Part shown: in pieces, positions 4,154 to 43,365 of the stretch
How the letters are laid out: every line of letters starts with the position of its first letter
Numbering within the stretch: position 1 is the stretch's first letter
Source: Thalassospira sp.
Lineage (GTDB): Bacteria; Pseudomonadota; Alphaproteobacteria; Rhodospirillales; Thalassospiraceae
Direction of reading: 5' to 3'
NCBI RefSeq assembly: GCF_002709775.1
Contig: NZ_PAQR01000043.1
Span: forward strand, 15,192-79,191
Length of the DNA stretch: 64,000 nucleotides
The notes under the pieces: generated by a model
Told to the model about the DNA's origin: nothing
The model's database searches: none
The model's input: the letters and a program-made list of their open reading frames with translations, nothing else
Position numbers and translations under genes: made by a program

Positions 4154-5320
4154 ATGAATAAACAGAAGATCGTAAAATCCGTCAGTCACAAGTCTCCCGA
4201 ACCGCATGAGGTGCCGGAAGACCCATTGGCATGCCTGCCGCAAACCTTTGAATCCCGCGGTGTCAGGACCCCGTTTACCACCAAGACCCTGCGCTATGCG
4301 CGCGTCTCGATCGGTAAGGGCGGACGGAAAATGATCATGTTGCCGGGTCTGTCCGGTGGGCTTGGTACTTACGAAATGCCGCTCGATACCCTGCGCGAAG
4401 TGTTTGATCTGTCGGTGCATGACCGCATGCTGTTTGATCGCGTGCTTGAGCTTGAAGAAGTTCGTCCGCAGACAGTTCTTGAACATAGCCGCGAAGTTGG
4501 CAGCACCGGTGTTGGCGGTGTGGAACTCGCGCGCGTTTGCATCCGCCGGAACTGGAACGAAAAGGCATCGCGTGAACTTGGTCAGATGGCCGTTCTGCAT
4601 CAGGCCCTGCGTCAACTTGGCGGTGAAGCCGTCAAGGACATGAAGCAAGAAGAACTGATGACCACCGAAGGCCAGATCCGCGCACGTAAAGCACTGAACC
4701 GCTTCGCGTCCGAGCACAAGGTAGCCAATGACACCATCATCGATAGTCTTGGCGAATGGAGCAAAATGATTGCCCCGGTTGGTCTTGATCTTGAAGGATG
4801 TCAGGGCCAGCTGCGCGTTTTGGCCAACGGGCTTAAGAAATTTGCCCAGGATATCGAGGAATGGGCGAACTCCGAGCAGTCCGATTTCCGCTTCATGGCC
4901 GGGCGTATCGTAAGTGCGACCCGTTCAACCAGCGAGCATGCCTTGAAACGCATTGCCGAAGTTGATAGCTGGAACAGCGAACTTGGCAAGGTTTTGACCG
5001 ATTGGGAGCGCGCCAAACAGGACATTGGCAAGACAGTCGAATATCTTTGGTGGCTGCTGGATGGCTGGCAGGAACTGATCGATGTCTGGGAAAAACGATC
5101 CCTGACAGATCGCTCCAAGCAGCGCGAAGTCGTCGAGGAAATCGCAAGTTTCGCACCGGTTCTGCCGCTTTCGGAAATTGCCATCTCGGAACAGCAGTTC
5201 TGGGCTGATGTGCGTGTGAACCAGATGCTTTGGGCCGGTGAATTGCGTAAACTTGGCAGTGGTGAGATTGACGCCGACATGATGGACCGTCTCGAACGCT
5301 TCAGGAGACAGACGGCATGA
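4154..5320 (+). CDS. Hypothetical protein, predicted helical and cytoplasmic (388 aa)
   Basis: Long ORF with host-like codon usage. Its stop overlaps the next start (ATGA). No recognisable domain. Confidence 0.85.
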   Translation: MNKQKIVKSVSHKSPEPHEVPEDPLACLPQTFESRGVRTPFTTKTLRYARVSIGKGGRKMIMLPGLSGGLGTYEMPLDTLREVFDLSVHDRMLFDRVLELEEVRPQTVLEHSREVGSTGVGGVELARVCIRRNWNEKASRELGQMAVLHQALRQLGGEAVKDMKQEELMTTEGQIRARKALNRFASEHKVANDTIIDSLGEWSKMIAPVGLDLEGCQGQLRVLANGLKKFAQDIEEWANSEQSDFRFMAGRIVSATRSTSEHALKRIAEVDSWNSELGKVLTDWERAKQDIGKTVEYLWWLLDGWQELIDVWEKRSLTDRSKQREVVEEIASFAPVLPLSEIAISEQQFWADVRVNQMLWAGELRKLGSGEIDADMMDRLERFRRQTA

Positions 5321-41531: not shown

Positions 41532-41564
41532 GAACAAGGGCGCGATGGTTTCGCGCCCTTGTTC
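41532..41564 (+). terminator. Strong stem-loop after the DUF3035 gene
   Basis: GAACAAGGGCGCGA-TGGTT-TCGCGCCCTTGTTC, a perfect 14-bp stem. Confidence 0.7.
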
Positions 41565-41647
41565 TGTCATATTCGGTTTTTAAGAAATGCCTGTTGAATG
41601 CGATTGCGCTGTTCTGGCGCATCGGCATTCAAACACCCTGTTTGCTC

Positions 41648-41912
41648 AGGGTCAGGACCTACTAATTTGATTTGAATGGCAGACGTTATATTTGTGAAAT
41701 GCAAGGAAAAGCACGTCGGGCGGGCTGGTATCCCGGCCAAGGGGTTTGACGCAGGAGTTCGCAAATATAACGTCTGTCCTTCGGATTAACCGGATTTGCA
41801 CGGGCTACTTTGTCGTAAAGCTTTGAAAGATATATATCTGTCTGCAGCTTTACTTCGCGTATCCGCACAAATCCGGTGAACCAGTCAAATCAAATTAGTA
41901 GGTCCTGACCCT
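41648..41912. mobile_element. MITE-like non-autonomous element (265 bp) with perfect 28-bp terminal inverted repeats
   Basis: AGGGTCAGGACCTACTAATTTGATTTGA at 41648-41675 and its exact reverse complement at 41885-41912. No transposase inside. Confidence 0.8.
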
Positions 41913-41943
41913 AACCATGCCTGATTTGGAATGGGACGCCACA

Positions 41944-43365
41944 ATGAGAATTTCTGGAACTTTCCGATCCGTGACGCGCAGCTCCTTGGCTGTGCTCGCC
42001 CTTGCCGCACTCACCCTTGCCTTCGTGCCGGGGCTGGCCCGTGCGGCGGTGTTCAACCCGCAAACCGCAACCCTTGATAACGGGATGCAGGTCGTGCTGG
42101 TGGAAAACCACCGTGCACCGGTTGTCACCCATATGGTCTGGTACAAGGTCGGCTCGGCCGACGAGCCGCAAGGTGTGTCGGGCATTGCCCATTTCCTTGA
42201 ACACCTGATGTTCAAGGGGACCGACGATATTGCGCCGGGCGATTTTTCCAAGATCGTTGCGCGCAATGGCGGCAATGACAACGCCTTTACCAGCTGGGAC
42301 TATACCGGATACTTCCAGAACATCGCTCGGGACCGGCTTGATCTGGTGATGAAGATGGAAGCCGACCGCATGACCAATCTGAAGCTTTCTGATGATGTGG
42401 TTCTCCCGGAACGTGATGTGATCATTGAGGAACGCCGTTCGCGCCTCGATACCAGCCCGGGTGCGCTTCTGGGCGAACAGATGCGCGCATCCCTCTATAT
42501 GGCCCATCCCTATGGCCGTTCGATCATTGGTTGGCTCAATGAAATGGAGCAGCTTACCACCGAAGACGCGCTCGCATTCTATCGCGACTGGTATGCGCCC
42601 AATAACGCCATTCTGGTCGTTGCCGGCGATATCACCATGGATGAGCTGCTGCCGATGGCCGAAAAATATTACGGCGTCATTCCGCGCGGCAAGGACATGA
42701 CGCGTAACAGGGTTCAGGAACCGGTTCAGCACGCCCCGCGCAAGGTCACCATGCGCGACCCGCAGGTCGGTCAGGCATCCTGGTCGCGTTATTACCTTGC
42801 CCCGTCCTACAACACCGACGGGGCCGACGCCGCACCGCTGGATGTGCTTTCCGAAATCATCGGGTCGGGTACCACCAGCCGCTTCTTCAAGGCGCTTGTC
42901 GTTGATCAGGAAATCGCTTCAAGCGTCGGGACCTTCTATGATCCGGTCGCAGTTGATCTGGCAAGCTTTGGTGTCTATGCGGTTCCGCGCGGTGATGTTG
43001 ACCTTGCCGATCTTGAAAAGGCTGTCGAGGCCCAGATTGCCAAGGTCGTGTCAGATGGTGTCACACAGGACGAACTCGACCGGGCCAAGCAGAAGCTTCT
43101 TGATAGTGCGGTCTTTGCCCGTGATTCGCTTTCGGCCGGTGCGCGTGTACTTGGTCAGTCGCTTGCGGTTGGCCTCAGCGTCGATCAGGTCGAAAGCTGG
43201 CCGGACCGGATTTCGGCTGTGACGGTGGATCAAGTCAATGAGGCCGCCAAACGGGTCTTCGATGACAAGAAATCTGTCACCGGCTGGCTGATGCCGCCCG
43301 AAGGTGGCCCGGTCACCGGGGCTGGTGCGGCGCTTCCGATCACGTCTGGCGAAGGAGTACACTGA
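41944..43365 (+). CDS. M16 (pitrilysin-family) zinc peptidase, catalytic subunit
   Basis: Signal peptide, WYKVGSADE, HFLEHLMFKGT (HxxEH), NAFTSWDYTGY, EERR. Confidence 0.93.
   Translation: MRISGTFRSVTRSSLAVLALAALTLAFVPGLARAAVFNPQTATLDNGMQVVLVENHRAPVVTHMVWYKVGSADEPQGVSGIAHFLEHLMFKGTDDIAPGDFSKIVARNGGNDNAFTSWDYTGYFQNIARDRLDLVMKMEADRMTNLKLSDDVVLPERDVIIEERRSRLDTSPGALLGEQMRASLYMAHPYGRSIIGWLNEMEQLTTEDALAFYRDWYAPNNAILVVAGDITMDELLPMAEKYYGVIPRGKDMTRNRVQEPVQHAPRKVTMRDPQVGQASWSRYYLAPSYNTDGADAAPLDVLSEIIGSGTTSRFFKALVVDQEIASSVGTFYDPVAVDLASFGVYAVPRGDVDLADLEKAVEAQIAKVVSDGVTQDELDRAKQKLLDSAVFARDSLSAGARVLGQSLAVGLSVDQVESWPDRISAVTVDQVNEAAKRVFDDKKSVTGWLMPPEGGPVTGAGAALPITSGEGVH

What the first reader, a model, noticed from the sequence alone, without database searches (positions are those of the whole stretch)
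41648..41912. 265-bp MITE-like element folding into a branched structure just upstream of the M16 peptidase operon
Seen: perfect 28-bp terminal inverted repeats (41648-41675 / 41885-41912). Internal arms: 41680-41698 / 41758-41776 (18 of 19, the mismatch being a G-U pair), 41790-41803 / 41863-41876 (12 of 14) and 41815-41822 / 41846-41853 (8 of 8) around the palindrome AGATATATATCT. If the ends are GGGTC...GACCC, the flanks are TCA and TAA, an imperfect TNA-type target. From memory the ends resemble GGGTCAGGACC termini of IS5-family (IS427-group) elements; this is unverified. It ends 31 bp before the peptidase ATG, so it probably lies in or replaces the promoter/5' UTR. Inferred: an undescribed MITE family, possibly domesticated as a structured RNA or regulatory element.
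Basis: partly seen in the sequence, partly recalled or inferred. Interest (0 to 1): 0.7.

Follow-up and report, generated by a model that had tools for sequence, protein, structure and literature searches.

The report
Structured MITE mobilised by IS711-like transposase
This is a real, recently inserted 263-bp miniature transposon sitting 31 bases before a peptidase gene; it belongs to an apparently undescribed family, widespread in marine and soil Alphaproteobacteria, whose Y-shaped fold is kept by many compensating mutations, so it may do more than jump.

Summary
Window 41649-41911 is a 263-bp non-coding element with perfect 28-bp terminal inverted repeats (TIRs) and a Y-shaped fold (RNA -132 kcal/mol, z = -11.7).

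It is a MITE. The own genome, probably a Thalassospira, holds 18 copies in two subfamilies. Full copies also occur in other Thalassospira, Nitratireductor, Mesorhizobium and Hoeflea. All close relatives have an empty site at this locus: TTTGCT-TA-ACCATG, against TTTGCT-cA-[element]-TA-ACCATG here.

The target is TA duplicated inside YTAR, not TNA. An 848-bp two-ORF IS5-family insertion sequence of IS427/IS711 type in the closest relative shares the outer ~21 nt (20/21) and the same target. The interior is unrelated to that IS.

The interior is an inverted dimer of one ~100-nt hairpin module. The module recurs in 11 of 150 other alphaproteobacterial families, inside TA-flanked elements with different ends. 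Covariation is very strong. Orthologous copies are more conserved than adjacent non-coding DNA. Thalassospira copies lie sense-oriented just upstream of genes (28:5).

Overlap with Bru-RS, CIR or RIME repeats is untested.

The parts
41647..41648 (.). Left copy of the duplicated target dinucleotide. It now reads CA; the ancestral target was TA.
   Evidence: The empty site in the closest relative reads TTTGCT-TA-ACCATG (L155:1495-1510; also L157). The consensus flank over 92 copies is TA.
41649..41911 (+). Body of the MITE (GGGTC...GACCC, 263 bp), with no transposase ORF.
   Evidence: 265 bp (body plus 2-bp duplication) are exactly absent from at least 7 same-genus genomes. There are 18 copies in the own genome and 74 full copies in other genomes.
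41648..41677 (+). Left terminal inverted repeat, forming the 5' strand of closing stem P1.
   Evidence: 28/28 complementarity with 41885-41912. The outer ~21 nt match the ends of the 848-bp IS5-family IS L192:925-1772. P1 pairs co-vary in 91 copies.
41677..41780 (+). Arm P2: the ~100-nt hairpin module in + polarity. It has an outer stem 41680-41698/41758-41776, conserved internal-loop motifs AAGGAAAAG and CAAGGGGTTTGACGC, and an inner hairpin.
   Evidence: Model R1 scores 103.7 bits, E 8e-28, on the + strand. Covariation is documented. G.U outnumbers A.C 179:14 in this arm, and 91 of the G.U come from one invariant pair.
41777..41786 (+). Linker between the two arms (GTCCTTCGGAT region, nearly invariant).
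   Evidence: Invariant or near-invariant columns in A1. An analogous CCC-nnn-GGG junction occurs in distant relatives.
41782..41883 (-). Arm P3: a second, shortened copy of the same module in reverse polarity. It has stems 41786-41803/41863-41880 and 41815-41822/41846-41853, and the apex AGATATATATCT.
   Evidence: Model R1 scores 37.7 bits, E 7e-10, on the - strand but only 1.7 bits on the + strand. Inverted repeats I2, I5 and I10.
41883..41912 (+). Right terminal inverted repeat, forming the 3' strand of P1.
41912..41913 (.). Right copy of the duplicated target dinucleotide TA.
41944..43365 (+). Downstream gene: M16 peptidase (first gene of a peptidase pair). Its start lies 31 nt after the element. 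This is context, not part of the element.
   Evidence: Pfam Peptidase_M16 and Peptidase_M16_C. ORF list. The signal-peptide-like N-terminus begins at ATG 41944.

Best explanation
Window 41649-41911 is a copy of a non-autonomous transposable element (MITE).

Insertion. It moved by a cut-and-paste DDE transposase of the IS5 family, IS427 group, of the kind exemplified by Brucella IS711. The ends GGGTCAGGACC... are the transposase recognition sites. Insertion occurred at a TA inside TTAA and duplicated the TA. The insertion postdates the split from the closest sequenced relative, Thalassospira sp. HJ. It lies 31 nt upstream of the M16 peptidase start codon, between the terminator of the upstream gene and the ribosome-binding site. 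It is therefore most probably transcribed as part of the peptidase leader (inferred).

Architecture. The element is not a deleted IS. Only the outer ~21 nt come from the IS. The ~220-bp interior is two head-to-head copies of one ~100-nt hairpin module, so the whole element folds as a Y: the TIR stem P1 plus arms P2 and P3.

Constraint. The module and the Y architecture are shared by a superfamily of TA-flanked elements with different IS5-like ends across Alphaproteobacteria. Base pairing is maintained by compensatory change, also in situ. So the fold itself is under constraint.

Most likely reading of that constraint (inferred, about even odds). Copies are co-transcribed with the downstream gene, and only compactly self-folding, sense-oriented copies are tolerated or useful in 5' leaders. 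The alternative is that the folded single strand is needed for mobilisation.

Shown: the anatomy, copy number, empty site, TA/YTAR target, the IS with matching ends, covariation, in-situ conservation and orientation bias. Inferred: which transposase acts, that the element is transcribed, and what the fold is for.
For: Multi-copy and widespread:
- 13 + 5 full copies in two subfamilies at 77-91% identity in the own genome.
- At least 111 pattern hits, and 74 full-length copies in the loci fetched, in Thalassospira spp., Nitratireductor spp., Mesorhizobium sp. PUT5, and Hoeflea, Phyllobacteriaceae and Rhodospirillales MAGs.

Mobility:
- The flanks are contiguous in G020, G008, G037, G027, G026, G021 and G025.
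- The junction reads TTTGCT-TA-ACCATG.

Target:
- TA/TA flanks in 25/26 Hyphomicrobiales copies; all 25 TA/TA sites are YTAR (CTAG 19).
- TA/TA flanks in 33/66 Thalassospira-group copies, 29 of them YTAR.

Partner IS:
- L192:925-1772 (848 bp; ORFs with DUF4096 + DDE_Tnp_1_2, NF033580 IS5 family) has ends AGGCTCAGGGCCTATTAATTT, matching MITE TIR variants 20/21, and sits in TTAA.
- An 836-bp relative in T. lucentensis has 10 copies, in CTAG, TTAA or CTAA.
- IS711 is published as 842 bp with TA duplication at YTAR (PMC3163539).
- No IS630-type DDE_3 was found in the MITE-rich genomes.

Structure:
- 92 predicted pairs, 66 of them with compensatory double changes.
- 93% Watson-Crick pairing at register against 19-33% when the partner is slid.
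- Module alignment across at least 12 families: 94.1% paired against 35-41% slid, 27/29 pairs with double changes, 0/500 shuffles reach the score.
- P3 is a reversed module.

Constraint in place:
- Five orthologous pairs are 97.4% identical against 94.0% for the adjacent non-coding flank (p = 1.4e-5), with two double compensations in one pair.

Orientation:
- In 81 independent loci, Thalassospira copies between co-directional genes are sense 28 : antisense 5 (p = 7e-5).
- Divergent versus convergent intergenic regions are 16:5, and the median distance to the downstream start is about 25-30 nt.
- There is no replication-strand bias (7:11).
Against: - No autonomous IS with these ends, and no IS5-type DDE_Tnp_1_2 or IS630-type DDE_3 transposase, was found in the window's own assembly. 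The assembly is 93% complete, in 67 contigs, and repeats may be unassembled.
- Mobilisation by the IS427-type transposase is inferred from 20/21 nt of shared ends and the shared target. It has not been demonstrated.
- The left target copy reads CA, not TA, so one substitution must be assumed. CA...TG and TT...AA flanks in a few copies would also fit the dinucleotide being part of the stem.
- No sigma-70-like promoter or intrinsic terminator was found on either strand of this copy. The cause of the orientation bias is therefore unexplained.
- The pseudo-symmetric dimer architecture weakens a purely strand-specific RNA reading. G.U versus A.C is balanced in P1 (40:39), and in the variable pairs of P3.
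- Gene calls for the orientation test came from my own codon-usage caller, not a curated annotation.
Confidence: 0.88

Rival explanations
1. The element is a host-beneficial, domesticated structured RNA. Once inserted in a 5' leader, the Y-shaped RNA stabilises, processes or regulates the downstream mRNA, and that function is what maintains the fold. This is a layer on top of the MITE reading, not an alternative to mobility.
For: - Compensatory change is abundant and also occurs in situ between orthologous copies.
- Elements are more conserved than the adjacent non-coding DNA.
- Old Thalassospira copies show a sense-orientation bias of 28:5 and lie close to start codons. Young Nitratireductor copies show 8:3 (not significant) and no excess of divergent intergenic regions.
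- P2 tolerates G.U but not A.C (179:14) and has an invariant G.U.
- Model R1 is strongly strand-specific.
Against: - The downstream genes have no common function.
- The two modules have opposite polarity, so either transcript carries one sense and one antisense module.
- No promoter or terminator signal is detectable.
- There are no expression data.
- The window's own copy is a young insertion absent from all relatives, so nothing at this locus depends on it.
Confidence: 0.35
2. The fold is maintained for the element's own propagation, or by a mechanical process. Either the folded single strand or cruciform is what the transposase or a host factor recognises. Or mismatches in the fold-back are repaired during replication or transposition, which homogenises the two strands of every stem. 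On this reading there is no benefit to the host.
For: - Every copy carries its own TIR variant, matched on both arms.
- P1 shows no strand asymmetry (G.U 40: A.C 39).
- The architecture is two-fold symmetric, as expected for something read at the DNA level.
- The same module travels with several different IS5-like ends.
- Remnants and short forms in Nitratireductor show that the long palindrome is prone to hairpin-mediated deletion.
Against: - DDE transposases of the IS5 family are not known to need folded substrates (my own knowledge).
- The partner IS has no such module next to its ends.
- Neither gene-orientation bias nor higher conservation of resident orthologous copies is predicted by a transposition-only constraint.
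Confidence: 0.3
3. It is a MITE of the IS630/Tc1-mariner superfamily, which also duplicates TA and in bacteria prefers CTAG.
For: - TA duplication in CTAG/TTAA sites.
- An IS630-family IS in Mesorhizobium sp. PUT5 shows the same flank signature.
Against: - That IS has unrelated ends (GAGCGGTTTTCGA).
- No DDE_3 match in the own genome, nor in three Nitratireductor genomes or Thalassospira sp. HJ, all of which carry many copies.
- An IS5-family IS with 20/21 matching ends and the same target exists in the genus.
Confidence: 0.04
4. It is a fixed, single-locus non-coding RNA gene or cis-regulatory element of the peptidase operon and is not mobile.
For: It lies directly upstream of the operon and has an exceptionally stable fold.
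Against: - 18 copies sit next to unrelated genes.
- It is absent from this locus in all relatives that have the locus.
- It has no Rfam match.
Confidence: 0.01

Closest known systems
IS711 (IS6501) of Brucella and other IS5-family, IS427-group insertion sequences
   Same: - The putative partner IS is 836-848 bp with two ORFs (DUF4096 + DDE_Tnp_1_2; NF033580).
- It duplicates TA inside YTAR, exactly as published for the 842-bp IS711 (PMC3163539).
- The MITE shares the outer ~21 nt and the target with it.
   Different: - The MITE has no transposase.
- Its interior is unrelated to the IS.
- The IS427-group assignment of the Thalassospira IS rests on size, two-ORF layout, domains and target, not on an ISfinder comparison.
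Bru-RS1 / Bru-RS2 palindromic repeats of Brucella
   Same: - They are alphaproteobacterial, intergenic and palindromic.
- At 103-105 bp they are the size of one hairpin module here (101-104 nt).
- They are associated with IS711 insertion (PMC3163539).
   Different: Sequence relationship is untested. Bru-RS are described as targets of IS711, not as TIR-bounded dimers.
[quoted passage not shown]
   Same: They are multi-copy, conserved across alphaproteobacterial genera, have TA at the termini, and their predicted RNA has two long arms joined by a linker (review PMC2229807).
   Different: - CIR are ~110 bp in total, lack TIRs, and are defined by a conserved GANTC in a terminal loop.
- The element here is 263 bp, has 28-37 bp TIRs, and has no conserved GANTC in either apex (alignment A1).
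Correia/NEMIS (Neisseria) and ERIC/IRU (enterobacteria) MITE-like repeats
   Same: They have TIRs, TA at the termini, sit in intergenic regions next to genes, have transcripts that fold into long stem-loops, and are reported to affect neighbouring mRNAs (PMC2229807).
   Different: - Those fold into a single long hairpin formed by 5'-3' end pairing.
- Here a Y-shaped fold is built from an inverted dimer of a hairpin module, and that module is conserved across many families with different ends.
RIMEs, Sm-repeats and AB/C palindromes of rhizobia
   Same: They are structured intergenic repeats of unknown function with conserved primary and secondary structure in Hyphomicrobiales (PMC2573895). Relatives of the element here occur in Mesorhizobium, Nitratireductor and Hoeflea.
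   Different: Identity is untested. The primary paper PMC177356 is not held, and the plasmid collection carries no repeat annotation.

Membership tests
MITE (miniature inverted-repeat transposable element) | Small (under about 500 bp) and without a transposase gene | tested here: met
   263 bp. The only ORFs are 60-65 aa chance frames on the - strand, with no family assignment attempted. The interior is a folded non-coding repeat.
MITE (miniature inverted-repeat transposable element) | Terminal inverted repeats | tested here: met
   28/28, extending to 37 nt at 92%.
MITE (miniature inverted-repeat transposable element) | Target-site duplication | tested here: met
   TA/TA in 25/26 Hyphomicrobiales copies and 33/66 Thalassospira-group copies. 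The empty site has a single TA. In the window's copy the left TA now reads CA.
MITE (miniature inverted-repeat transposable element) | Multiple dispersed copies | tested here: met
   18 copies in the own genome. Between 2 and 22 matches per genome in the genus.
MITE (miniature inverted-repeat transposable element) | Insertion polymorphism (filled versus empty sites) | tested here: met
   The site is empty in at least 7 close relatives at this locus. A second family's C13 copy is also absent in relatives.
MITE (miniature inverted-repeat transposable element) | Ends shared with an autonomous IS that could act in trans | tested here: met
   20/21 nt shared with the 848-bp IS L192:925-1772 in the closest relative. 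Actual mobilisation was not tested.
IS5 family, IS427 group (for the partner IS, and so for the MITE's lineage) | DDE transposase of IS5 type split into two ORFs, in an element of about 0.8-1 kb | tested here: met
   836-848 bp. OrfA has DUF4096 and OrfB has DDE_Tnp_1_2/DDE_Tnp_1. The two halves match NF033580 positions 2-112 and 144-257.
IS5 family, IS427 group (for the partner IS, and so for the MITE's lineage) | Short (2-4 bp) duplication; for IS711, TA in YTAR | tested here: met
   All seven IS copies examined are flanked by TA in CTAG, TTAA or CTAA. The published IS711 behaviour is in PMC3163539.
IS5 family, IS427 group (for the partner IS, and so for the MITE's lineage) | Assignment by ISfinder comparison of transposase and ends | not testable with these tools
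   ISfinder is not available. The subgroup call rests on the features above and on my memory of the ISfinder subgroup table.
IS630/Tc1-mariner-derived MITE | Ends shared with an IS630-family IS, and a DDE_3 transposase present where the MITE is active | tested here: not met
   No DDE_3 in the own genome or in four copy-rich genomes. The Mesorhizobium IS630 has different ends.
CIR (CcrM-associated intergenic repeats) | Conserved GANTC methylation site in a terminal loop; about 110 bp; no TIR | tested here: not met
   There is no conserved GANTC in the P2 or P3 apex in 91 copies. The element is 263 bp with 28-37 bp TIRs. The definition is taken from review PMC2229807.
Bru-RS1/2 and RIME repeats | Sequence or profile similarity to the published consensus | not tested
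   The primary papers are not held. No named Brucella, Caulobacter or Sinorhizobium chromosome was reachable.
Any curated RNA family (Rfam 15) | Covariance-model match | tested here: not met
   No hit at E <= 1 on the element, and none at E <= 0.01 on 13 loci with relatives.

The most novel reading that the evidence does not exclude
The ~100-nt hairpin module, with its conserved internal-loop motifs AGGA(A/G)AAG ... CAAG ... (T)TNGACG, is an undescribed functional nucleic-acid element of Alphaproteobacteria. It is carried as an inverted dimer by a whole superfamily of IS5-end-bounded MITEs. Its fold is selected in situ because the transcribed element acts on neighbouring genes as a mobile 5'-leader module affecting mRNA stability, processing or translation. 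The MITEs would then distribute a ready-made structured RNA device around genomes and between orders.
Probability: 0.25. Interest if true: 0.75.

Novelty: new variant of a known kind. Interest (0 to 1): 0.55.

Why it matters
Bacterial MITEs are the least studied mobile elements, and few have an identified partner IS, a documented empty site and a cross-order distribution. This one has all three.

More unusually, its interior is not junk between two ends. It is an inverted dimer of a hairpin module whose pairing is kept by compensatory change in at least 12 alphaproteobacterial families, while the transposase-specific ends differ. Resident copies evolve more slowly than neighbouring non-coding DNA. 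Older copies are sorted into the sense orientation just upstream of genes.

That combination makes a long-standing question directly testable in a tractable marine bacterium: whether MITE folds are selected for the host (RNA-level effects), for the element (substrate structure), or by hairpin repair. Natural filled and empty alleles exist for the test (this strain versus Thalassospira sp. HJ).

It also matters practically. Such elements sit in 5' leaders of ordinary genes and can confound promoter, UTR and sRNA prediction.

Tried and rejected
- **IS with MITE ends in the own genome.** I looked for an IS-sized pair of the MITE ends in the own genome and found none.
- **IS with MITE ends in other genomes.** The same search in three large genomes gave only MITE-sized and shorter pairs.
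- **Unpaired ends.** I followed 12 unpaired perfect ends in Nitratireductor aquimarinus. Six are 12-bp remnants and the others are truncated copies or unrelated DNA; no transposase was found.
- **IS630 hypothesis.** I held it at first because of the TA/CTAG flanks, then rejected it.
- **3-bp TNA or 4-bp CTAG duplication.** Rejected. The G and C next to the dinucleotide are invariant while the outer flank bases vary.
- **Replication-strand bias as the cause of the orientation bias.** Rejected (7:11).
- **Common regulon of downstream genes.** Rejected.
- **Simple promoter or terminator in the element.** None on either strand of this copy. A Caulobacter-type TTGACGC-N13-TATAAC match in P2 is not conserved in other subfamilies or distant relatives, where only GACG is invariant, so I dropped it.
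- **Stand-alone P2 hairpins.** I first read them as an independent module, then showed they are interiors of a second MITE family.
- **Plasmid collection.** Only two unannotated Nitratireductor copies.
- **Literature.** No paper on Thalassospira MITEs. Primary papers on RIME and CIR are not held.
- **Reaching Brucella through the transposase.** The family is too large and no named Brucella hit appeared in the top 120.
- **C13 empty-site junction.** Too many small indels for a clean duplication call.
- **The look-up of sequencing runs.** It was closed, so no RNA evidence could be gathered.
- **Earlier scan notes.** They held nothing on this element.
Full report
**1. Observation**

The region was read directly.
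- The 28-bp terminal inverted repeats (TIRs) 41648-41675 / 41885-41912 are perfect. They extend to 37 nt at 92%.
- As RNA, the 275-nt stretch folds at -132.3 kcal/mol against -74.1 +/- 5.0 for shuffles (z = -11.7).
- The element ends 31 nt before the ATG at 41944, which opens a signal-peptide-like N-terminus of an M16 peptidase.

**2. It is a multi-copy family**

- BLAST and an nhmmer profile find exactly 18 full-length copies in the window's own 4.24-Mb, 67-contig genome. Thirteen belong to the window's subfamily (77-91% identity). Five belong to a second subfamily that shares the core but has a different inner TIR and a different P2 stem sequence that still pairs.
- A degenerate 25-nt core pattern hits at least 111 places in the species-representative genome collection.
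  - Many are in Thalassospira species (order Rhodospirillales), which is probably the window's genus.
  - Others are in Nitratireductor species, Mesorhizobium sp. PUT5, and Hoeflea and Phyllobacteriaceae MAGs (order Hyphomicrobiales).
- 74 full-length copies were extracted from those loci.
- Nitratireductor copies are 94% alike, which suggests a recent burst. Thalassospira copies are about 77% alike.

**3. It is mobile, and the target is TA in YTAR**

- With the window's flanks as query, all close same-genus genomes have the two flanks directly abutting. Exactly 265 bp are missing.
- The closest relative (flanks 95-96% identical) is G020, which is the same genome as G041, Thalassospira sp. HJ.
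  - It reads TTTGCT-TA-ACCATG.
  - The window reads TTTGCT-cA-[GGGTC...GACCC]-TA-ACCATG.
  - So this is a 263-bp insert plus a TA duplication whose left copy has since changed.
- Across all copies the flanks are TA/TA in 25 of 26 Hyphomicrobiales copies. All 25 of those TA/TA sites are YTAR, 19 of them CTAG.
- They are TA/TA in 33 of 66 Thalassospira-group copies, 29 of them YTAR.
- The G and C adjoining the dinucleotide never vary while the outer bases do. This excludes a 3-bp TNA or a 4-bp CTAG duplication.

**4. The partner IS**

- No longer element with these ends exists in the own assembly.
- The own assembly also has no IS630-type (DDE_3) or IS5-type (DDE_Tnp_1_2) transposase hit.
- MITE-rich Nitratireductor genomes and Thalassospira sp. 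HJ lack DDE_3 too. A Mesorhizobium IS630 has the same TA/YTAR signature but unrelated ends.
- Searching DDE_Tnp_1_2 found the likely partner.
  - Thalassospira sp. HJ has an 848-bp IS (L192:925-1772) with ends AGGCTCAGGGCCTATTAATTT / AGGCTCAGGACTCATTAATTG.
  - T. lucentensis Mv1 has ten copies of an 836-bp relative with ends AGGGTCTGAACCCAATTGG.
  - All of these are flanked by TA in CTAG, TTAA or CTAA.
- Both IS carry two ORFs (DUF4096; DDE_Tnp_1_2/DDE_Tnp_1) that match the two halves of NCBIfam NF033580, IS5 family.
- MITE TIR variants match the 848-bp IS over 20 of 21 terminal bases, and nothing else in the MITE matches.
- Size, two-ORF layout and target equal those published for Brucella IS711: 842 bp, with a 'canonical TA duplication at YTAR' (PMC3163539).
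- Half of the genus carries such a transposase. Several MITE-rich genomes do not.

**5. Anatomy of the interior**

- An alignment of 91 distinct copies (A1) gives a Y-shaped consensus: P1 (the TIRs), arm P2 and arm P3.
- Of 92 predicted pairs, 66 keep pairing through changes on both sides.
- At the true register 93% of cells are Watson-Crick pairs, against 19-33% when the partner is slid by 1-3 columns.
- A covariance model of P2 (R1) shows that P3 is the same module in reverse polarity.
  - In the window, P2 (41677-41780) scores 103.7 bits on the + strand.
  - P3 (41782-41883) scores 37.7 bits on the - strand and 1.7 bits on the + strand.
- The element is thus an inverted dimer: TIR-module> <module-TIR.

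**6. A superfamily**

- R1 finds the module in 11 of 150 other alphaproteobacterial families (one genome each). It is usually multi-copy and occurs as adjacent +/- pairs.
- Those pairs lie in ~290-300-bp Y-shaped elements, mostly TA-flanked, with other IS5-like ends: TA|GAGCCC, CA|GAGCCTTT, GA|GAGCA, TA|GAGCG and TA|GGGTCCAAAC.
- The own genome also holds four copies of such a second family (C13, C50, C34, C16). Their P1 stems share only the first few bases yet pair perfectly within each copy.
- The C13 copy is likewise absent from the orthologous site in relatives. Its junction is not clean.
- On 48 modules from these families:
  - 94.1% of cells pair, against 35-41% when slid.
  - 27 of 29 pairs show double changes.
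  - No shuffle of 500 reaches the covariation score.
- None of these elements matches Rfam.

**7. Signs of constraint beyond mobility**

- (a) Five own copies have orthologous filled sites in other Thalassospira species.
  - The elements are 97.4% identical, against 94.0% for the adjacent non-coding flanks (Fisher p = 1.4e-5).
  - One pair shows two neighbouring double compensations.
- (b) After collapsing 92 copies to 81 independent loci:
  - Thalassospira copies between co-directional genes are sense-oriented 28:5 (p = 7e-5).
  - Divergent intergenic regions outnumber convergent ones 16:5.
  - The element's 3' end is typically about 25-30 nt from the downstream start.
  - The young Nitratireductor-group copies show 8:3, and 4:6 for divergent versus convergent regions.
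- (c) The bias is not a replication-strand effect (7:11), and the downstream genes are functionally unrelated.
- (d) P2 tolerates G.U far more than A.C (179:14, including one invariant G.U), whereas P1 is symmetric (40:39).
- Caveats:
  - Gene calls are from my own codon-usage caller.
  - The copies are related to one another.
  - The dimer symmetry means either transcript holds one sense and one antisense module.

**8. Mechanism**

- Shown: a TIR-bounded, TA-duplicating, non-coding, multi-copy element with empty-site polymorphism and an IS427/IS711-type IS sharing its ends.
- Inferred: that transposase moves it in trans.
- At this locus it landed between the upstream gene's terminator hairpin (41532-41564) and the peptidase ribosome-binding site. 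It should therefore be part of the peptidase leader.
- No sigma-70-type promoter or intrinsic terminator is detectable in it on either strand.
- Why the fold is conserved is open. I give about 0.35 to an RNA-level role in leaders, and about 0.3 to a role of the folded strand in mobilisation or to hairpin repair. The rest goes to mixtures of these or to neither.

**9. Comparison with known elements**

- The closest known system for movement is IS711 and the IS427 group.
- For the repeat itself, the nearest candidates are:
  - Bru-RS1/2: 103-105-bp palindromes linked to IS711 insertion.
  - CIR1-4: two-armed ~110-bp repeats with GANTC in a loop. That hallmark is not met here.
  - Rhizobial RIMEs and Sm-repeats.
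  - More loosely, Correia and ERIC elements.
- Direct sequence comparison with Bru-RS, CIR and RIME could not be made. Part of the superfamily may therefore already carry a name.

**10. Verdict**

This is a genuine MITE of an apparently undescribed family, with an identified IS partner type. The interior is unusually deeply conserved and symmetric. I rate it a new variant of a known kind, of moderate interest.

Noticed in passing
L142, L143, L145, L146, L152, L153 (Nitratireductor aquimarinus F7, position ~20 of each locus): Six sites read TA-GGGTCAGGACCC-TA(G): the first 7 and last 5 bases of the element joined. They are either deletion remnants between the direct GACCC repeats or excision footprints. 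The same genome has 150-bp and 168-bp short forms, and T. lucentensis has a 60-bp one.
   Followed up: partly
G000:C16:41582-41847 (locus L205:1283-1548): A single 266-bp element with the same AGGGTCAG...CTGACCCT ends and a Y-shaped fold. Neither the nhmmer profile nor model R1 matches its interior. It is probably a third family using the same transposase.
   Followed up: partly
G000:C13:23140-23410, C50:8975-9240, C34:66330-66600, C16:69850-70120 (loci L204, L206-L208): A second ~290-bp Y-shaped MITE family with CA/TA|GAG(C/T) ends. The four copies have entirely different P1 stem sequences that nevertheless pair within each copy. The C13 copy is absent at the orthologous site in relatives, and the family has many copies elsewhere in the genus.
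   Followed up: partly
G000:C62:1-862 and C59:21958-22814 (loci L202, L203): An 88%-identical repeat at two contig ends contains a block resembling the P3 apex (gtcgtaaaatcttgaaagatgcgcgtcttcctgcgattttgcg). Its nature is unknown and it has no Rfam match.
   Followed up: no
G000:C1:35203-35243: A solitary 41-bp copy of the terminal repeat (95% identity) without the rest of the element.
   Followed up: no
L184-L191 (Mesorhizobium sp. PUT5): Eight near-identical copies of a 1058-bp IS630-family IS with TA|GAGCGGTTTTCGA ends, inserted in TTAA, CTAG or TTAG. It has the same flank signature as the MITE but unrelated ends.
   Followed up: yes
window 41532-41564: A perfect 14-bp GC-rich hairpin (GAACAAGGGCGCGA / TCGCGCCCTTGTTC) about 45 nt after the stop of the upstream gene. 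It is probably that gene's terminator. The simple terminator scan did not call it because the T-run is weak.
   Followed up: no
L070:4805-5012 (Thalassospira lucentensis DSM 14000 locus): A +/- pair of module hits, so a second-family element, lies about 110 bp downstream of a first-family MITE copy (4431-4695). The two families can therefore cluster.
   Followed up: no
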